Shown here: positions 30,831 to 35,697 of the stretch, piece after piece
Layout of the letters: each line of letters opens with the position of its first letter
Position numbering within the stretch: position 1 is the stretch's first letter
From: a virus
Taxonomy: Duplodnaviria; Caudoviricetes
Virus record (IMG/VR): IMGVR_UViG_3300027708_000013
Strand: one strand, 5' to 3'
DNA length: 64,000 nucleotides
Notes under the pieces: model-generated
Database searches by the model: none
What the model saw: the letters and a program-made list of their open reading frames with translations, nothing else
Told to the model about the DNA's origin: nothing
Translations under genes and position numbers: made by a program

Positions 30831-30920
30831 TGGCGGAGAGTGTGAGATTCGAACTCACGATACAGTTGCCCATATGTCTGCTTAGTAGGCAGATGCCATC
30901 GTCCACTCGGCCAACTCTCC
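30831..30920 (-). tRNA. tRNA-Ser(ACT)
   Basis: Acceptor GGAGAGT/ACTCTCC+G+CCA, anticodon arm TCTGC-CTACTAA-GCAGA, long variable arm with GCAA loop, TTCGAAT T-loop. Confidence 0.85.
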
Positions 30921-30930
30921 TGAAGTTGTT

Positions 30931-31134
30931 TTACACTTCTACTGTGCCGTTTTGTATGGCCAACAGGGTTGAAATCAATGCATCGCTGTGTTGCAGTTCT
31001 GCACGATCTGCTGTTCTTTTATAAAGTGTTCTAGATTGTTGTGTGGCCGACAATATCATGTCGTATCTATTGCCGCCGGCGATTCTAACACATTTTTCAA
31101 TATCAATTTCAGTGCCTCTGCTGATTGGTTTCAT
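30931..31134 (-). CDS. rpoZ: RNA polymerase omega subunit (RpoZ)-like protein
   Basis: IEKCVRIAGGNRYDMILSATQQSR...LISTLLAIQNGTV aligns by eye with RpoZ [23 protein letters not shown]...[14 protein letters not shown]; AAGGA Shine-Dalgarno. Confidence 0.7.
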   Translation of the reverse strand: MKPISRGTEIDIEKCVRIAGGNRYDMILSATQQSRTLYKRTADRAELQHSDALISTLLAIQNGTVEV

Positions 31135-31159
31135 ACTGTTCCTTGTTCAAGTTGATTGA

Positions 31160-31446
31160 AGTACAACAGTTTGGGTACATGTATTTGCTTTACAACCGTG
31201 GACTGCTTGCCTTTGGAGAGCTACTCCTCTCGGCTTTGCAGACAAGTACCACCACCGTGCAAGCGGCTAAATGTCAACAAGTTTCAACAGACTCTCGGAC
31301 GTTTCCATGGCTTTTAAATTCTGGTGCCGCTTCGGGAATACCCGATATTGCACAATTTTCGAGCGACTCAAAGTCTTGCAATGCCACGTACTGCGCCTAC
31401 CACTGGTATCAAACGGGCGTCACCCCTGTACCCAAACTGTTGTACT
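31160..31446 (-). ncRNA. Unassigned ~287 nt structured ncRNA
   Basis: Perfect 19-20 bp terminal inverted repeat (31161-31179 vs 31427-31445), several internal stems, and its own promoter immediately upstream. Confidence 0.7.
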
Positions 31447-31455
31447 CTAGTTACT

Positions 31456-31484
31456 AGTGTAACATCTATCGCAATATGTGTCTA
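31456..31484 (-). promoter_or_regulatory. Sigma70-type promoter of the ncRNA-rpoZ-tRNA-Ser unit
   Basis: TAGACA-17-TACACT; the predicted start falls 1-3 nt before the ncRNA stem. Confidence 0.65.
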
Positions 31485-31603
31485 GCGTTTTTGATGGTTT
31501 TTGAGTCGGGAAAACCGTCAAACCCGGTGTCAACAGCCCATCCCCGGTTTCGTTGACAGCGGATGCTGATTAACAACCTTGCGGTGCGGGGTCAGCAACA
31601 ACT

Positions 31604-31678
31604 TGGTGGGCCAGGAAAGAATTGAACTTTCACTCCTTCGGTTATGAGCCGAACGCTTTACCATTAAGCTACTAGCCC
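31604..31678 (-). tRNA. tRNA (CAT), Ile2-like
   Basis: TTCGG-CTCATAA-CCGAA arm, GGGC start, A73, CCA; the Ile2 identity is inferred. Confidence 0.85.
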
Positions 31679-31684
31679 GTTCGA

Positions 31685-32296
31685 TTACATTGCAGGACCG
31701 TTTCCGGACTTAAAACCTACACTACCACCCTCTGCTTCAATGCGAGCAATAACATCTTCAAACAAGATAGGAGCAAAGTCTGGAAGTTGTTCTACGCAAA
31801 CGCAGTGGTATCTAACATCAATCTCATCGCTGTACAGAATTTCTCCTGTTCTAGCATCAATACCACGTGGTTTCATAACACGATTTGCGTGAGTATGTCC
31901 GTGAATGTTAACTCCGAATCGACCTAAACTATCACTGTGCAACGGAATATGACTGAGAATCATCCCGTCCATCACATGGTAGGCACGTAATTCTCTAAAG
32001 TACTGTCTGTACTCGTCGTCCCTAAAGATATCATGGTTACCGCGGATCAACACCTTGTCACCGTTGAGTCTAGCCAATGTGGCCAATGCCCGACGGTTGA
32101 TGACTACATCGCCCAAGTGATAAATCTTATCTGTGGGCTTAACTCTTTCGTTCCAAGACTTGACCATGGCTTCGTCCATTTCATCTGGATCAGTCCAAGG
32201 ACGCAGTTTTGTGACACCATCGTTACGTGTGAAGCGACATACACCTGCGTGTCCAAAGTGTGTATCGCTGACTAAAAATACTGCGGGCATATTCAA
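31685..32296 (-). CDS. Calcineurin-like metallophosphoesterase
   Basis: SDTHFGH, HLGDV, RGNHD, SHIPLH, HGHTH; promoter TTGACC-17-TATAAT at 32313-32341. Confidence 0.9.
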   Translation of the reverse strand: MNMPAVFLVSDTHFGHAGVCRFTRNDGVTKLRPWTDPDEMDEAMVKSWNERVKPTDKIYHLGDVVINRRALATLARLNGDKVLIRGNHDIFRDDEYRQYFRELRAYHVMDGMILSHIPLHSDSLGRFGVNIHGHTHANRVMKPRGIDARTGEILYSDEIDVRYHCVCVEQLPDFAPILFEDVIARIEAEGGSVGFKSGNGPAM

Positions 32297-32343
32297 CTCC
32301 TTTCTTTACAATATTATAACATGTTTGTGATTGCGGGTCAATG

Positions 32344-32421
32344 TGGAAGTGAGAGTCGGATTCGAACCGACGGGTTGACAGCTTTGCAGGCTGTTGCATT
32401 GGACCACTCTGCCATCTCACT
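32344..32421 (-). tRNA. tRNA-Cys(GCA)
   Basis: ACAGC-CTGCAAA-GCTGT, U73, CCA. Confidence 0.92.
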
Positions 32422-32429
32422 ACAGTTTT

Positions 32430-32503
32430 TGGCGAATCCCCAGGGAGTCGAACCCCGGCCGTCAGTTTTGGAGACTGAAATGCTACCGTAACACTTGGGA
32501 CTC
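32430..32503 (-). tRNA. tRNA-Trp(CCA)
   Basis: TCAGT-CTCCAAA-ACTGA, CCA end. Confidence 0.92.
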
Positions 32504-32508
32504 ATTAT

Positions 32509-32582
32509 TGGAGCGGAATACCAGAATCGAACTGGTGACTAGACGTTGGCAACGTTTCGTTTTACCATTAAACTAATCCCGC
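32509..32582 (-). tRNA. tRNA-Gly(GCC)
   Basis: GCGGGA start, loop TTGCCAA, U73, CCA. Confidence 0.92.
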
Positions 32583-32600
32583 ATGTTATTACTTATAGTG

Positions 32601-32676
32601 TGGCGCTCTCGACCGGATTCGAACCGGTGTACTCACCGTGAAAGGGTGATGTCCTAGGCCTCTAGACGACGGGAGC
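32601..32676 (-). tRNA. tRNA-Glu(TTC)
   Basis: TCACC-CTTTCAC-GGTGA, CCA. Confidence 0.92.
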
Positions 32677-32686
32677 ATAAAACTGG

Positions 32687-32799
32687 TGTTTGTGTTTGGC
32701 GCTTGAATCCACGGCAACCCTGACTCTTCATGGCCGGTCCTGACACGTGGTCGACTTTGGTCAGTATTTCGGTGTTCCATTGTAGTTGCTACACAAACA
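32687..32799 (-). ncRNA. tRNA-like RNA without a canonical anticodon arm or CCA
   Basis: Closing stem TGTTTGTGT/ACACAAACA; T-loop-like GGATTCAAGCGCC near the 3' end. Confidence 0.55.
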
Positions 32800-32820
32800 T
32801 AATCTTGACAAGATACTCTG

Positions 32821-32892
32821 AAGCGGGGGCTGGATTCGAACCAACGACCTTCAGGTTATGAGCCTGGCATGCTACCGCTACACTACCCCGCA
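32821..32892 (-). tRNA. tRNA (CAT), initiator-like, CCA not encoded
   Basis: TGCGGGG start with 1:72 mismatch; CCAGG-CTCATAA-CCTGA arm. Confidence 0.8.
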
Positions 32893-32926
32893 TCAGAATA
32901 TCCTATTTCTCTCTTACGCATAGACT

Positions 32927-33172
32927 TTAATCAAATGGTATTGGTTTTTCTGGTGTTGCTATCAACTCTTCTACTACAAATACGTCAAAATTCTTTTCAT
33001 CTTCTGGATGTTTTATACAGTCCACAAACCATCCAAACTTATAACGCCAATGATAAAATTGTCCTTCATCGGCGTTCCAACGAGCCTCTGTGGCATTACG
33101 GCATTGACCACGATAGTAAGCACCGTGGATCAAATCCTGTCGAGCAATCTTTGCCTGATATTGATCTTCCAT
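32927..33172 (-). CDS. Conserved phage hypothetical protein within the tRNA array
   Basis: Start MEDQYQ at 33172 after AAGGA; YYRGQCRNATEARW...HWRYKFG...HPEDE..FDVF. Confidence 0.75.
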   Translation of the reverse strand: MEDQYQAKIARQDLIHGAYYRGQCRNATEARWNADEGQFYHWRYKFGWFVDCIKHPEDEKNFDVFVVEELIATPEKPIPFD

Positions 33173-33199
33173 TATATTTTCCTTGTTGCTGTGTAGGCT

Positions 33200-33370
33200 C
33201 CGGCCACTTGCTGTCATACAAGCCCCGGAGTGGAATTCATCGTTAGCCATGTTCTCAGTCTGTAATGGCAGACAGTGTTGACCGATCAGGGCAATCAACC
33301 ACCCACTTGCGTCAGCAGAGCAAGTTACCCCCGATTCAAAGCTCGGCAACTTATGACAAAACTTGGCCGG
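33200..33370 (-). ncRNA. Unassigned ~171 nt multibranched RNA
   Basis: CCGGCCA/TGGCCGG plus TGTCATA/TATGACA closing helix; internal hairpins ACTTGC/GCAAGT, GTTGA/TCAAC, GTCTG/CAGAC. Confidence 0.6.
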
Positions 33371-33434
33371 CCCCACTAGTGGGATACCATTTAAACTGGG
33401 CTGTCTTTTCGCGTTATATCCCAGTACCATGACT

Positions 33435-33509
33435 TGGCGGTCTCAAGGAGTAACGATCTCCTTCTTCAGCAGTGACAGTGCTGTGTGCGTCCATGAACAC
33501 TTTGAGACC
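33435..33509 (-). tRNA. tRNA-Asp(GTC), non-canonical T-loop
   Basis: CAGCA-CTGTCAC-TGCTG; T-loop ATCGTTA; G73, CCA. Confidence 0.9.
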
Positions 33510-33598
33510 CAAATTAGTGACCCGGTTCGTAAACAGTATTGATTGATTTACAGGGGCGTCAGGCCTCCAATGGACTTTTTAGGGTGCCAATTCTTTTG

Positions 33599-33699
33599 AC
33601 TATATTGAAACACACTGTTGAGATTTCACTTTTCAAGTCAGGGTCCGGATGACCAAGCGCCGCTTCTCGCAGGTAGAAAACAATGTGCTTCAATATAGT
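33599..33699 (-). ncRNA. Unassigned RNA closed by a 21-bp helix
   Basis: ACTATATTGAAGCACATTGTT pairs with AACAGTGTGTTTCAATATAGT; the two non-Watson-Crick positions are G-U only on the minus strand. Confidence 0.6.
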
Positions 33700-33701
33700 A
33701 T

Positions 33702-33838
33702 GTTTGTGGTAAGGATTCGCACCTTACACCACGGTTGCCCTAAATTACTCGATGATAGTCTCAACCAGTGCGGCCGCACCTTCGAGTAGTTCCACCTTTC
33801 ACCCAACCGTATATACCTGTCTCTTATACGACACAAAC
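33702..33838 (-). ncRNA. tRNA-like RNA (~137 nt) with a large insert in place of the anticodon loop
   Basis: Acceptor-like GTTTGTG/CACAAAC, T-arm GTAAGG-TGCGAAT-CCTTAC, stem ACGGTT/AACCGT enclosing TACTCGA/TCGAGTA; no CCA. Confidence 0.65.
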
Positions 33839-33843
33839 TTACC

Positions 33844-33961
33844 ATATTAAAACTATATCAATATCTTCCTTCTCTGACAAGAAGGCGTTTCGCAGTGTGT
33901 CAGCACCACCGAATGTTGACTCCGATCAGGAGTATGGCACCCGTCGATATAATTTTAATAT
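33844..33961 (-). ncRNA. Unassigned RNA closed by an 18-bp helix
   Basis: TATTAAAATTATATCGA/TTGATATAGTTTTAATA with G-U pairs on the minus strand; internal hairpins ACTCC/GGAGT and CCTTCT/AGAAGG. Confidence 0.6.
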
Positions 33962-33964
33962 AGC

Positions 33965-34060
33965 GCCTTTCACAAGGCTTATATTTTGCTACTTGATTTG
34001 TTAAAGAACTGTAATTTCTTACTATACATGTATTATACGGTATTGTGAATTACCAGTCAA
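33965..34060 (-). promoter_or_regulatory. Internal promoter with boxA and GNRA hairpin (rrn/nut-like antitermination leader)
   Basis: TTGACT-17-TATAAT (34032-34060), GTTCTTTAACAA boxA-like (33998-34009), GCCTT-GTGA-AAGGC hairpin (33965-33978). Confidence 0.65.
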
Positions 34061-34093
34061 CCAAAATACTGTTGCATATTTACAACAAATTAT

Positions 34094-34185
34094 TGGCGGA
34101 AGGCAGAAGAGTCGAACTCCATCCCCGTTAGGAGAACCTGGTTTTCAAGGCCAGTCGCAGGACCATCCCCGCTGCATTACCTTCC
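34094..34185 (-). tRNA. tRNA-Ser(TGA) with 8/4 fold
   Basis: 8-bp acceptor GGAAGGTA/TGCCTTCC, 4-bp T-stem GGAG/CTTC, loop CTTGAAA, long variable arm, G73, CCA. Confidence 0.85.
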
Positions 34186-34191
34186 ATGTCT

Positions 34192-34276
34192 TGGTGGGAA
34201 TGGTGAGACTCGAACTCACACGCCTTGCGGCGGCGGCTTCTAAAACCGCTTCGGCTACCAGTTACGACACATTCCC
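34192..34276 (-). tRNA. tRNA-Leu(TAG)
   Basis: GCGGT-TTTAGAA-GCCGC, long variable arm, CCA. Confidence 0.92.
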
Positions 34277-34282
34277 GTTGTT

Positions 34283-34358
34283 TGGGGTGCTGTATGGGAC
34301 TCGAACCCATACTACGAGATCCACAATCTCGGGTGCTAACCGTTACACTAACGGCACC
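34283..34358 (-). tRNA. tRNA-His(GTG)
   Basis: CGAGA-TTGTGGA-TCTCG, G-1:C73, CCA. Confidence 0.92.
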
Positions 34359-34367
34359 ACGGTTCTT

Positions 34368-34442
34368 TGGTCCGGCCAGGAAGAATCGAACTTCCGTTTA
34401 GAGATTAGAAGTCTCCTGTATTTTCCACTATACGATGGCCAG
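34368..34442 (-). tRNA. tRNA-Arg(TCT)
   Basis: GAGA-CTTCTAA-TCTC, CCA. Confidence 0.9.
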
Positions 34443-34443
34443 T

Positions 34444-34528
34444 TGGTACGAGGGGAGAGATTCGAACTCTCATGCCTAACGGCGTCGGTGCTTAAAACCG
34501 GTGCGGCTACCTGTTTCGCCACCCTCGT
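34444..34528 (-). tRNA. tRNA-Leu(TAA)
   Basis: Loop TTTAAGC, long variable arm, CCA. Confidence 0.88.
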
Positions 34529-34534
34529 ATTGTT

Positions 34535-34608
34535 TGGTGCTCTTACCTGGTAACGATCCAGATTTTCCGCCTTACCAAGACGGTGTAATGCCTTTATACT
34601 ATAAGAGC
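34535..34608 (-). tRNA. tRNA-Thr(GGT), non-canonical T-loop
   Basis: CCGTC-TTGGTAA-GGCGG; T-loop ATCGTTA; CCA. Confidence 0.88.
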
Positions 34609-34609
34609 T

Positions 34610-34683
34610 TGGCAGGGGTACTAGGACTTGAACCTAGAACGACACAGTCAAAGTGTGTTGTGTTACCATTACACTATACCCCA
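34610..34683 (-). tRNA. tRNA-Gln(TTG)
   Basis: ACACA-CTTTGAC-TGTGT, CCA. Confidence 0.92.
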
Positions 34684-34689
34684 ATTGTT

Positions 34690-34763
34690 TGGTAGGCCCG
34701 GAAGGTAATGCTCCTTCTTTTGCGGATTAAAAGTCCGCTACTTTACTTTTAAGTTACAAGCCC
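34690..34763 (-). tRNA. tRNA-Lys(TTT), divergent D- and T-loops
   Basis: GCGGA-CTTTTAA-TCCGC; T-loop AGCATTA; D-loop lacks GG; CCA. Confidence 0.82.
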
Positions 34764-34769
34764 ATAATA

Positions 34770-34846
34770 TGGCCGGCCCTGACGGATTCGAACCGCCAAC
34801 TGCTGGTTTCGAAGACCAGAACTCTATCCAATTGAGCTAAGGGCCG
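34770..34846 (-). tRNA. tRNA-Arg(TCG)
   Basis: CTGGT-CTTCGAA-ACCAG, CCA. Confidence 0.92.
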
Positions 34847-34851
34847 ATGTT

Positions 34852-34926
34852 TGGTACCCATGGGTGGAATTGAACCACCGTCGCTGCGTTATCAACACAG
34901 AGCTAAACCACTCAGCTACACGGGTA
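34852..34926 (-). tRNA. tRNA-Ile(GAT)
   Basis: CTGTG-TTGATAA-CGCAG, CCA. Confidence 0.9.
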
Positions 34927-35002
34927 TGGTAGGAGATACCAGGTTCGAACTGATGACATTCTGTGTGTAAGACAGACGCTCTACCAACTGAGCTAATCTC
35001 CT
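34927..35002 (-). tRNA. tRNA-Val(TAC)
   Basis: TCTGT-CTTACAC-ACAGA, CCA. Confidence 0.92.
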
Positions 35003-35008
35003 ATTGTA

Positions 35009-35083
35009 TGGTCGGAGTAGAAAGAATCGAACTTTCGAAATCTCGCTCCCAAAGCGAGTGACATACCACTTGCCGATACTCCG
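35009..35083 (-). tRNA. tRNA-Pro(TGG)
   Basis: CTCGC-TTTGGGA-GCGAG, CCA. Confidence 0.92.
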
Positions 35084-35090
35084 ATAAAAC

Positions 35091-35173
35091 TGGTGCTGGA
35101 GGTGAGACTCGAACTCACGTAGGTTTCCCGACGGCTTACAAAACCGTTGCAATTGCCGCTATGCGACTCCAGC
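35091..35173 (-). tRNA. tRNA-Thr(TGT) with extended variable region
   Basis: ACGGT-TTTGTAA-GCCGT; variable region CGGGAAACCTAC; CCA. Confidence 0.88.
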
Positions 35174-35185
35174 GTTGAATTAATT

Positions 35186-35277
35186 TGGCAGTGAGTGTGG
35201 GATTTGAACCCACGGTACGTATTTCTACATACAACACCTTAGCAGGGTGCCGATTTAAGCCACTCATCCAACTCACT
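35186..35277 (-). tRNA. tRNA-Ser(GCT)
   Basis: GCACC-CTGCTAA-GGTGT, long variable arm, G73, CCA. Confidence 0.92.
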
Positions 35278-35286
35278 ATAATTTTT

Positions 35287-35361
35287 TGGTGGAAATAGGT
35301 AGATTCGAACTACCGACCTGCGCCGTATGAAGGCGATGCACTACCGCTGTGCTATATTTCC
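35287..35361 (-). tRNA. tRNA (CAT), probably elongator Met
   Basis: TCGCC-TTCATAC-GGCGC, CCA; Met versus Ile2 identity not resolved. Confidence 0.85.
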
Positions 35362-35363
35362 AA

Positions 35364-35437
35364 TGGAGCGGGATGAGAGAATCGAACTCTCAACTGGAGA
35401 TTGGAAATCTCTAATTTTACCATTAAACTAATCCCGC
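35364..35437 (-). tRNA. tRNA-Gly(TCC)
   Basis: GAGA-TTTCCAA-TCTC, U73, CCA. Confidence 0.92.
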
Positions 35438-35443
35438 ACGGTT

Positions 35444-35527
35444 TGGTGGAGAATACTGGGATCGAACCAGTCGTGCCTGCGGCGCCGGATTTACAGTCCA
35501 GTGCATCACCATTGATGCTTCTTCTCC
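35444..35527 (-). tRNA. tRNA-Tyr(GTA)
   Basis: CTGGA-CTGTAAA-TCCGG, long variable arm, CCA. Confidence 0.92.
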
Positions 35528-35533
35528 GTTACA

Positions 35534-35608
35534 TGGTGGAGGATGAGAGAATCGAACTCTCTTGACCTACGTGCAAGGCAGGCATAATATCCAGTATATG
35601 AATCCCCC
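35534..35608 (-). tRNA. tRNA-Ala(TGC)
   Basis: G3:U70; CCTGC-CTTGCAC-GTAGG; CCA. Confidence 0.92.
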
Positions 35609-35614
35609 ATAGTA

Positions 35615-35697
35615 TGGCTCCGCGGCTAGGGCTTGAACCTAGCTAGTCTTTCGACACAGATTAACAGTCTGCTGCCACACCCGGCGGCTCCCGCGGA
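35615..35697 (-). tRNA. tRNA-Asn(GTT) with extended variable arm
   Basis: GCAGA-CTGTTAA-TCTGT; variable arm GTC-GAAA-GAC; G73, CCA. Confidence 0.88.

What the first reader, a model, noticed from the sequence alone, without database searches (positions are those of the whole stretch)
32687..33838. Two anticodon-less tRNA mimics sharing the acceptor stem GTTTGTG/CACAAAC
Seen: elements 33702-33838 (~137 nt) and 32687-32799 (~113 nt) both open GTTTGTG and close CACAAAC-A. Both have a T-arm-like hairpin just before the 3' strand (TGCGAAT and TTCAAGC loops), but carry large structured inserts in place of the anticodon loop and no encoded CCA, unlike nearly all true tRNAs here. Established: the T4 tRNA cluster makes two stable tRNA-like RNAs of unknown function (species I/II, rnaC/rnaD), and bacterial Y RNAs have tRNA-like domains. 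Inference: decoys for tRNA-targeting defence nucleases or sensors, or processing guides.
Basis: partly seen in the sequence, partly recalled or inferred. Interest (0 to 1): 0.7.

Follow-up and report, generated by a model that had tools for sequence, protein, structure and literature searches.

The report
Two tRNA-derived small RNAs in phage
Among the tRNA genes of an uncultivated lake jumbo phage sit two conserved small RNAs that keep the tRNA end used by processing enzymes but carry a different, strongly conserved module where the anticodon should be. They resemble the 50-year-old unexplained RNAC/RNAD of phage T4 in build, but not in sequence.

Summary
Both elements are real and lie on the minus strand with all 27 tRNAs. 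Single-sequence evidence is weak: the 7-mer is not enriched and the fold z-scores are not significant. Comparative evidence is strong.

**Element A (32799-32684)**
- 58 homologs in IMG/VR phage contigs, 34 distinct.
- 96% of cells paired, and 15 of 30 pairs show compensatory changes.
- Build: an 8-9 bp closing stem stacked on a short T arm (12 layers), plus a 77-nt rod. The rod's apical loop always holds a 6-8 nt palindrome.

**Element B (33838-33701)**
- A full cloverleaf whose anticodon loop is replaced by about 66 nt.
- About 50 of those nt vary at only two positions across nine relatives whose stems covary.
- Its body scores best against the clade's tRNA-Phe(GAA), and U-GAA-A is retained.
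- Relatives carry both B and a normal tRNA-Phe, so a spliced tRNA is unlikely.

**What they are not:** no Rfam family matches either element. They are not tmRNA, Y RNA or group I introns, and are not homologous to T4 RNAC/RNAD.

**Best reading:** non-decoding, tRNA-scaffolded RNAs, cut out and end-matured by tRNA enzymes, with the inserted module as the working part.

The decoy idea is untested. Other first-stage notes of this scan flagged both elements, but none followed them up.

The parts
32684..32799 (-). Element A, whole RNA: closing stem, rod, T-like hairpin, A73-CCA
   Evidence: 58 homologs. Alignment A2 has 96% of cells paired and 15 of 30 pairs compensatory, reached by 0 of 500 shuffles. 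The CM R1 scores it at 116 bits.
32791..32799 (-). A closing (acceptor-like) stem, 5' strand UGUUUGUGU
   Evidence: Pairs with 32695-32687. All 8 family columns show compensatory changes, and at least 11 stem variants occur.
32714..32790 (-). A rod: P2 (GCAACU/GGUUGC), P2a AUGG/CCAU, P2b CCG/CGG, P3 CUGAC/GUCAG with conserved internal loops ACA / GAAGAG
   Evidence: P2, P2b and P3 covary. P2a covaries in the divergent members, CUGG/CCAG.
32750..32755 (-). Palindrome GUCGAC in the P3 apical loop
   Evidence: A 6-8 nt palindrome is present in all 24 distinct variants. It is replaced by ACUAGU in one clade, GUUGAC in L131 and AGUCGACU in L014/L041.
32696..32712 (-). A T-arm-like hairpin with loop UUCAAGC (32707-32701)
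   Evidence: The G-C pair changes to A-U in 7 sequences. Divergent members have the canonical UUGG-UUCGAUU-CCAA.
32684..32695 (-). A 3' strand ACACAAAC, A73, CCA
   Evidence: Read directly from the sequence. 26 of the 27 tRNAs in the array also encode CCA.
33701..33838 (-). Element B, whole RNA: cloverleaf with an insert in place of the anticodon loop
   Evidence: 9 distinct homologs. The cloverleaf is 93% paired with 6 compensatory pairs. The CM R2 scores it at 170 bits.
33809..33838 (-). B acceptor 5' strand GUUUGUG, UC, and D arm (GUAUA ... UAUAC)
   Evidence: The acceptor covaries in L172 and L181. The D stem is invariant and the D loop varies.
33804..33808 (-). B anticodon-like stem, 5' strand GGUUG (pairs with CAACC at 33737-33733)
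   Evidence: AGUUG/CAACU in L172 and CCUUG/CAAGG in L181.
33738..33803 (-). B insert. Holds U-GAA-A, the 12-nt palindrome GUGCGGCCGCAC (33779-33768), a second GGUUG (33766-33762) and hairpin H3 (33761-33742) with a variable loop
   Evidence: About 50 nt vary at only two positions in 9 sequences. The only variable run lies in the H3 loop.
33709..33727 (-). B T arm GUAAGG-UGCGAAU-CCUUAC
   Evidence: Becomes GUGGGG/CCCCAC in L151, AUAGG-UUCGAUU-CCUAU in L172 and GCAGGG/CCCGGC in L181.
33701..33708 (-). B acceptor 3' strand CACAAAC and A73 (no CCA in this genome)
33841..33851 (-). Leader motif X' (UUUAAUAUGGU), complementary to the trailer motif X
   Evidence: X' lies before B and X after B in all relatives.
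33689..33699 (-). Trailer motif X (ACUAUAUUGAA). Can pair with X', or close the next cassette

Best explanation
A and B are two separate families of non-decoding, tRNA-derived small RNAs. They are carried as single-copy accessory units inside the highly shuffled tRNA array of a clade of uncultivated freshwater jumbo phages.

**Build**
- Each keeps the part of a tRNA that processing enzymes measure: an acceptor-type helix stacked on a T arm.
- In A this is 8-9 plus 3-4 layers, 12 in all, followed by A73-CCA.
- In B it is 7 plus 5-6 layers, with a D arm as well.

**How they mature (inferred)**
- The RNA is cut out of the polycistronic tRNA precursor by RNase P.
- Its 3' end is trimmed or given CCA, which stabilises it like a tRNA.

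**Working part (inferred)**
- The anticodon end is replaced by a family-specific module under strong selection, and this is the working part.
- In A it is a 77-nt rod with fixed internal loops and a palindromic apical loop.
- In B it is a 66-nt insert, of which about 50 nt are near-invariant, set in a body descended from tRNA-Phe.
- The module most likely binds a partner: a second copy of itself through the palindrome, and/or a protein.

**Shown and inferred**
- Shown: conservation, structure, tRNA-like top half, array context, absence from known families.
- Inferred: processing route, non-decoding role, partner binding.
For: - **Strand and spacing.** Both elements are on the strand of all tRNAs. 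A sits 7 nt before tRNA-Glu and 21 nt after tRNA-Met.
- **A, structure.** 58 homologs; 96% of cells paired; 15 of 30 pairs with double-sided changes; reached by 0 of 500 shuffles; slid controls reach at most 47% paired.
- **A, transcribed strand.** G.U pairs occur only on the minus strand.
- **A, T arm.** Divergent members have a canonical T arm with loop UUCGAUU.
- **A, context.** In 52 of 52 loci the nearest tRNAs are co-oriented, with at least 10 different neighbour species.
- **A, copy number.** One copy in each of four whole records and none in a 94%-complete relative.
- **A, 3' end.** A ends ACCA, like 26 of the 27 tRNAs.
- **B, cloverleaf.** Acceptor, anticodon-like stem and T stem all covary.
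- **B, insert.** A run of about 50 nt varies at only two positions.
- **B, origin.** The best non-B hits of model R2 are tRNA-Phe(GAA): the top 3, and 5 of 13, against 16 of 931 tRNAs in those loci.
- **B, RNA libraries.** Contigs from RNA-seq libraries of fresh water and waste water hold the B core with the insert in place and show no joints (weak, contigs only).
- **Palindromes.** Present at the apex of both modules (B read).
- **Precedent.** T4 rnaC shows the same plan.
- **Precedent for the stack.** 8/4 and 9/3 acceptor/T branches that keep 12 bp are known in tRNAs of bacteria and phages (PMC5389517).
Against: - There is no direct evidence that discrete RNAs with these ends exist. The RNA-library data are contigs and may include DNA.
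- B lacks CCA in this genome.
- Many A copies have ACCU or no CC after the stem. In several the 'discriminator' can pair, which extends the stem to 9-10 bp.
- A's T stem has only two or three firm pairs.
- The tRNA model of Rfam and ARAGORN do not see either element.
- Both are dispensable within the clade.
- No binding partner is identified.
Confidence: 0.6

Rival explanations
1. Decoys or sponges for host defence enzymes or toxins that act on tRNAs. The tRNA-like top half would draw enzymes that attack or modify the acceptor/CCA end or the elbow away from real tRNAs.
For: - The acceptor plus T-arm minihelix of tRNA length is intact, with ACCA in A.
- The distribution is accessory and patchy, as is usual for counter-defence genes.
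- The elements sit in a tRNA array, which is itself thought to offset tRNA-targeting defences (general knowledge).
Against: - The anticodon loop, the target of PrrC-, PARIS- and retron-type nucleases, is exactly what is missing.
- A decoy does not explain why the inserted modules are the most conserved parts.
- No linked defence or anti-defence protein was found.
- Nothing was tested here.
Confidence: 0.15
2. B is a tRNA-Phe(GAA) gene interrupted just 3' of position 37 by a small intron of a new kind. After removal of the intron it would supply the Phe tRNA that this array otherwise lacks.
For: - The array has tRNAs for 19 amino acids and none for Phe.
- B's body is closest to the clade's tRNA-Phe.
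- G-A-A is kept in all 9 sequences, with U33 in 6 (7 of 10 counting the fragment L182) and A37 in all. A73 is kept in 7.
- With the insert removed in silico, ARAGORN calls the L172 copy tRNA-Phe.
Against: - L172, L189 and L205 have both B and a canonical tRNA-Phe.
- U33 is C in three copies.
- The needed register gives a 4-bp stem with a G.G or G.A closing pair.
- There is no bulge-helix-bulge motif, no group I features and no Rfam hit.
- ARAGORN in intron mode finds nothing. In-silico removal fails in 7 of 9 copies even at relaxed settings.
- The T loop has G55 in 8 of 9 copies.
- RNA-library contigs keep the insert and show no joints.
- The invariance of the insert points to a role in the mature RNA.
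Confidence: 0.06
3. Decaying tRNA pseudogenes, or DNA-level repeats such as recombination or protein-binding sites, with no RNA function.
For: - The tRNA arrays of these phages are reshuffled constantly.
- The palindromes GTCGAC and GCGGCCGC could be protein sites on DNA.
- The elements are dispensable.
Against: - Compensatory changes maintain six helices in A and three in B.
- G.U pairs are tolerated only on the tRNA strand.
- The palindrome changes to GUUGAC, which self-pairs only as RNA.
- Pseudogenes would not keep about 50 nt nearly unchanged while their stems covary.
Confidence: 0.05

Closest known systems
Phage T4 RNAC (species 1) and RNAD (species 2) stable RNAs
   Same: - They are encoded inside the tRNA cluster, on the tRNA strand, directly after a tRNA.
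- rnaC folds as a closing stem, a large structured insert and a canonical T arm CCGGG-UUCGAAU-CCCGG next to the 3' strand.
- Sizes are similar (139 and 119 nt), and their role is unknown (PMC3014915).
   Different: - There is no sequence or profile similarity: model R1 gives nothing on rnaC or rnaD.
- The inserted modules differ.
- A and B come from an unrelated jumbo-phage clade and each forms its own family.
tmRNA tRNA-like domain
   Same: The 5' and 3' ends form an acceptor stem stacked on a T arm, and the anticodon arm is replaced by other RNA.
   Different: - ARAGORN finds no tmRNA.
- The elements are 115-140 nt, against 260 nt or more.
- No conserved tag reading frame exists: an in-frame stop appears in L172.
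- There is no G3.U70.
- B has full D and anticodon stems.
Bacterial Y RNAs (YrlA) with a tRNA-like domain
   Same: They have tRNA-like T and D arms. One member is cut by RNase P and receives CCA (PMC4201824).
   Different: - In YrlA the ends form the Ro-binding stem and the tRNA-like part is internal; here the ends are the acceptor.
- No TROVE/Ro60 gene is found in three near-complete relatives.
- There is no Rfam hit.
allo-tRNAs with 8/4 or 9/3 acceptor/T branches (PMC5389517)
   Same: Element A has a long acceptor helix and a short T stem that still add up to 12 stacked layers. Such tRNAs also occur in phages.
   Different: allo-tRNAs have a normal anticodon arm and decode. A has neither a D arm nor an anticodon loop.
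ROOL and GOLLD RNAs (PMC12286853)
   Same: They are phage or prophage RNAs of unknown function that sit next to tRNA islands, and they self-assemble through kissing loops. A and B carry conserved palindromes at the apex of their modules.
   Different: - They are 5-7 times larger and lack a tRNA-like half.
- Rfam models of both give no hit here.
- Self-association of A or B is only inferred.
Engineered tRNA scaffolds, and tRNA-like processing handles such as mascRNA and MHV68 TMERs (from my own knowledge)
   Same: A foreign RNA placed in or beside a tRNA body is processed by RNase P/Z and stabilised.
   Different: Those are synthetic or eukaryotic/viral cases. A natural bacteriophage example with the cargo in the anticodon position has not, to my knowledge, been described.

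Membership tests
Canonical tRNA (Rfam RF00005) | Scores at or above the family threshold, or is called by a tRNA finder | tested here: not met
   There is no RF00005 hit on A or B even at E<=10. ARAGORN finds nothing, with or without introns.
Canonical tRNA (Rfam RF00005) | 7-nt anticodon loop on a 5-bp stem | tested here: not met
   B has about 66 nt between GGUUG and CAACC. A has a 77-nt rod.
Canonical tRNA (Rfam RF00005) | Acceptor helix stacked on a T arm (12 layers) with a T loop of type UUCRANY, followed by N73-CCA | tested here: met
   - A: 8-9 plus 3-4 layers, loop UUCAAGC (UUCGAUU in divergent members), ACCA.
- B: 7 plus 5-6 layers, loop UGCGAAU or UUCGAUU. CCA is present in 5 of 9 relatives, not in the window.
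T4 RNAC/RNAD | Sequence or profile homology | tested here: not met
   Model R1 run with filters off on the T4 tRNA region gives only weak hits on tRNAs. B was not tested against T4 with R2.
T4 RNAC/RNAD | Stable non-tRNA RNA encoded within the phage tRNA cluster on the tRNA strand | tested here: inconclusive
   Position and strand are met. Stability and discrete ends are not shown (contigs only).
tmRNA | tRNA-like domain plus a tag reading frame, detected by ARAGORN | tested here: not met
   The reading frame over B is broken by a stop in L172.
Bacterial Y RNA (YrlA) | Linked Ro60/TROVE gene, with the Ro-binding stem formed by the RNA ends | tested here: not met
   PF05731 is absent from 5 records, 3 of them at least 94% complete, while the control genomes are positive. 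The topology is reversed.
Intron-containing tRNA (group I or bulge-helix-bulge) | A recognisable intron core or BHB motif, with exons that form a normal anticodon arm | tested here: not met
   - No group I hit.
- No BHB by inspection.
- The exon join gives a tRNA call in 2 of 9 copies, only one of them Phe, and only at relaxed settings.
ROOL / GOLLD | Match to the Rfam models | tested here: not met
Small self-cleaving ribozymes (hammerhead, twister, pistol, hatchet, HDV-like) | Match to the Rfam models, or the conserved catalytic core | tested here: not met
   No hit at E<=10. By eye, the cores CUGANGA/GAAA are not in the required order.

The most novel reading that the evidence does not exclude
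B is a tRNA-Phe(GAA) gene split at the canonical 37/38 site by a new class of small (about 58 nt), sequence-invariant intron. The intron would be removed by a route other than group I self-splicing. In this genome, which has tRNAs for the other 19 amino acids, B would then be the only source of tRNA-Phe.

A milder novel reading, with odds of about 0.25: A and B self-associate through their apical palindromes and act as bivalent tRNA mimics, small cousins of ROOL/GOLLD.
Probability: 0.06. Interest if true: 0.9.

Novelty: new variant of a known kind. Interest (0 to 1): 0.6.

Why it matters
- **An old open question.** Stable non-tRNA RNAs inside phage tRNA clusters have been known since the 1970s (T4 RNAC/RNAD), and no function has ever been assigned to them.
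- **What these families add.** There are two new families with enough natural variation to define their structures. That variation shows selection acting mainly on the module that replaces the anticodon, not on the tRNA-like half.
- **A testable idea.** Phages may use a tRNA body as a natural scaffold to process and stabilise a cargo RNA.
- **Handles for experiments.** The palindromic loops and the invariant core of about 50 nt can be mutated directly.
- **Annotation.** Neither family is in Rfam, and tRNA finders miss both, so they currently go unannotated in jumbo-phage genomes.

Tried and rejected
**Database and family searches with no useful hit**
- Rfam at gathering scores and at E<=10: nothing on A or B.
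- ARAGORN with introns of 0-120 nt: nothing.
- megablast and blastn against 50,697 deposited phage genomes: only the tRNA-Met and tRNA-Asp parts match, so no cultured phage has A or B at that sensitivity.
- Exact core patterns in 185,579 species genomes: B gives 0 hits; A gives 118 hits, about the number chance predicts, and none sits in A context.
- Y RNA: no TROVE gene.
- T4 rnaC/rnaD homology: none by R1.
- A and B homologous to each other: R1 does not find B. The shared UGGAAC...YCGAA words fit different helices, so this stays open.

**Structural and coding ideas checked by eye and dropped**
- Hammerhead, HDV-like and twister cores, K-turn, loop E, 5S rRNA and SRP domain IV. Each either fails a required position or rests on variable columns.
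- Coding: the 51-codon frame over B has a stop in L172, and the frames over A are broken by indels.
- Mobile insert: the B insert was never found in another scaffold, and no insert-free allele was found.

**Pairing and synteny**
- B pairing with the following tRNA-Asp (UUGAGAC against GUCUCAA): the Asp acceptor varies among B-bearing loci while B does not.

**Expression**
- Two run searches and one laying of four RNA-library runs gave contigs only.
- The B core and part of an A relative are present, and no joints are seen.
- Parts without cover and the very high summed depth over the B core in one waste-water run cannot be interpreted.

**Neighbouring proteins and published catalogues**
- Pfam and PHROGs on neighbouring proteins gave no RNA-processing partner.
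- Supplementary tables of the 2023 catalogue of viral structured RNAs (PMC10690425) are not held, so I could not check whether A is among its 8,495 IMG/VR motifs.
Full report
**Setting**

The window comes from an uncultivated jumbo phage. It encodes GroEL, virion proteins and sugar-nucleotide enzymes, and no close relative exists among deposited phages. A tRNA array lies on the minus strand between 30.8 and 35.7 kb. ARAGORN and Rfam together give 27 tRNAs for 19 amino acids, with Phe missing. Of these, 26 encode CCA. A phosphoesterase gene inside the array has at least 597 relatives in IMG/VR at about 90% identity, yet the order and content of their tRNA arrays differ widely.

**The observation**

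Read on the minus strand, A (32798-32687) and B (33838-33701) both open GUUUGUG and close CACAAAC-A, and both have a hairpin with a T-loop-like loop directly before the 3' strand.

A single sequence gives no significance. The 7-mer occurs 15 times in the window against 20.8 expected, and the fold energies are ordinary, with z-scores of -0.98 and -0.19. The case therefore rests on relatives.

**Element A**

A conserved 18-mer finds 56 IMG/VR contigs. nhmmer finds 58 copies, 34 of them distinct.

The consensus structure has:
- a closing stem of 8-9 bp;
- P2 (6 bp), P2a (AUGG/CCAU), P2b (CCG/CGG) and a P3 hairpin;
- a short hairpin GG-A-UUCAAGC-G-CC that abuts the 3' strand of the closing stem.

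On this structure 96.0% of cells form pairs, and 15 of 30 pairs show changes on both sides. No shuffle out of 500 reaches any of the five measures, and sliding the partners drops pairing to 35-47%. The closing stem has at least 11 different sequences. G.U pairs occur only when the minus strand is read.

A covariance model (R1) finds more distant members: L172, L014, L041/L047 and L021. In these P2a and P2b covary (CUGG/CCAG, CGC/GCG), and the side hairpin is a textbook T arm, UUGG-UUCGAUU-CCAA. The hairpin is therefore a T arm.

The closing stem and the T stem together make 12 stacked layers in an 8/4 or 9/3 arrangement. Such arrangements are known from unusual tRNAs of bacteria and phages (PMC5389517). 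A has no D arm and no anticodon loop.

Context:
- In 52 of 52 loci the nearest tRNAs on both sides are on the same strand.
- The next tRNA usually starts within about 20 nt.
- The neighbours belong to at least 10 different species.
- Whole records hold one copy or none.

**The palindrome in A**

The apical loop of P3 (13-16 nt) varies at its edges but always holds a palindrome:
- GUCGAC in most copies;
- ACUAGU in the L083/L133 clade;
- AGUCGACU in L014/L041;
- GUUGAC in L131, which still self-pairs through two G.U pairs.

A six-letter palindrome cannot fold on itself inside a loop. It therefore suggests loop-loop pairing between two molecules. A random 14-nt loop would hold such a palindrome about one time in eight, so this is a lead and not proof.

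**Element B**

B is rare. There are two IMG/VR contigs and nine metagenome contigs, which together with the window give nine distinct full-length sequences.

They support a cloverleaf:
- Acceptor: GUUUGUG/CACAAAC in seven, UCCGU/ACGGA in L172, UGCUUCU/AGUAGUG in L181.
- D stem: invariant, with a variable D loop.
- A 5-bp stem: GGUUG/CAACC, AGUUG/CAACU or CCUUG/CAAGG.
- A 4-5 nt variable loop.
- T arm: GUAAGG/CCUUAC, GUGGGG/CCCCAC, AUAGG-UUCGAUU-CCUAU or GCAGGG/CCCGGC.

On this cloverleaf 93.4% of cells pair and six pairs have double-sided changes, which no shuffle out of 500 reaches.

Between the two strands of the 5-bp stem lie about 66 nt. A run of about 50 nt varies at only two positions in all nine sequences, although the stems around it have diverged. 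The only freely variable run is six nt that RNAalifold places in a hairpin loop, H3.

The run includes a 12-nt palindrome, GUGCGGCCGCAC, and a second copy of GGUUG. In L172 both GGUUG copies and the partner CAACC carry matching changes. In L181 only the first copy still pairs. Whether B switches between two folds is therefore open.

**Origin of B**

Model R2 was searched over about 1 Mb of relatives' arrays. After the true B copies, it ranks tRNA-Phe(GAA) genes first, second and third. Five of its 13 hits at E<=10 are tRNA-Phe, although these are only 16 of 931 tRNAs there. The scores are weak (17-18 bits) and the Phe genes are related to each other, but the direction is clear.

Directly after the stem, B reads G-U-GAA-A. 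B is thus best seen as a descendant of a tRNA-Phe gene.

Could it still be one, with an intron?
- For: Phe is the one amino acid missing from this array.
- Against: L172, L189 and L205 hold both B and a normal tRNA-Phe.
- Against: U33 is C in three copies.
- Against: the register needed is poor, and no known intron type fits.
- Against: contigs from RNA libraries keep the insert and show no joints.

I put this reading at about 6%.

**Flanks of B**

In all relatives B is preceded by UUCAAUAUGGU and followed by ACCAUAUUGAA. These pair and would lengthen the acceptor to about 18 bp.

The same arms also close neighbouring cassettes. In the window these are 33966-33841 and 33701-33597, with z-scores of -6.1 and -4.75. 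The arms recur several times in the relatives. They may be processing stems or recombination modules. They belong to another finding, and I did not pursue them.

**What the elements are not**

- No Rfam family matches.
- There is no tmRNA.
- No Ro60 gene is found in three near-complete relatives.
- There is no homology to T4 rnaC/rnaD, although rnaC has the same plan.
- No copy occurs in 185,579 bacterial and archaeal species genomes.
- No conserved reading frame exists.

**Mechanism**

Shown: both are conserved, structured RNAs of the tRNA strand with a tRNA-like top half and a conserved non-tRNA module.

Inferred from established tRNA biology: RNase P, 3' trimming enzymes and the CCA-adding enzyme recognise the acceptor/T minihelix. 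The elements would then be released from the array transcript and stabilised like tRNAs. Because the anticodon arm is gone, they cannot decode.

Selection is strongest on the modules, so these do the work. The palindromes make self-pairing the most concrete proposal. This echoes ROOL and GOLLD, phage RNAs next to tRNA islands that assemble through kissing loops (PMC12286853).

The decoy idea remains possible for enzymes that act on the acceptor end, and is unlikely for anticodon nucleases.

**Verdict**

This is a real and well-supported pair of new RNA families, of a kind known but unexplained since T4. Their function is unknown, and the ideas above can be tested.

Noticed in passing
window 33966-33841 and 33701-33597 (minus strand): Two strongly structured cassettes (z-scores -6.1 and -4.75) are closed by 21-22 bp AU-rich stems. 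The arms of these stems (ACYAUAUUGAA / UUCAAUAURGU) are also the leader and trailer of B, so alternative pairings are possible. The same arms recur several times in the arrays of L179, L189, L151 and L205.
   Followed up: partly
window 30831-35697: The array has 27 tRNAs for 19 amino acids. Phe is the only one missing, while close relatives (L205, L189, L172) have a canonical tRNA-Phe(GAA).
   Followed up: yes
window 33509-33435 (minus strand): A tRNA-Asp(GUC) with an odd T loop (AUCGUUA) is called by ARAGORN but missed by Rfam even at E<=10. A tRNA-Asp follows B in all 7 loci that reach that far.
   Followed up: partly
window 34185-34098 (minus strand): A tRNA-Ser(UGA) with a long variable arm is missed by default ARAGORN and scored by Rfam as a sub-threshold tRNA-Sec (35.8 bits).
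   Followed up: partly
window 33434-33200 (minus strand): A non-coding stretch of about 235 nt lies between tRNA-Asp and an 81-codon gene (phrog_18490). It is 82% conserved in L205 and covered by near-identical contigs of a lake metatranscriptome run. It may be another RNA or a leader.
   Followed up: no
window 33766-33762 and 33808-33804 against 33737-33733: B holds two copies of GGUUG that can each pair with CAACC. In L172 all three carry matching changes; in L181 only the first copy still pairs. This may be a two-state fold.
   Followed up: partly
loci L001-L136: Phages whose array-embedded phosphoesterase is about 90% identical have tRNA arrays that differ almost completely in order and content. 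This points to very fast modular shuffling.
   Followed up: no
window 33750-33795, run X2: In one waste-water cDNA run the summed contig depth over the B core is about ten times that over the tRNA-like neighbours. If the run is RNA, this would mean a very abundant small RNA. The contigs were not listed, so I could not check.
   Followed up: no
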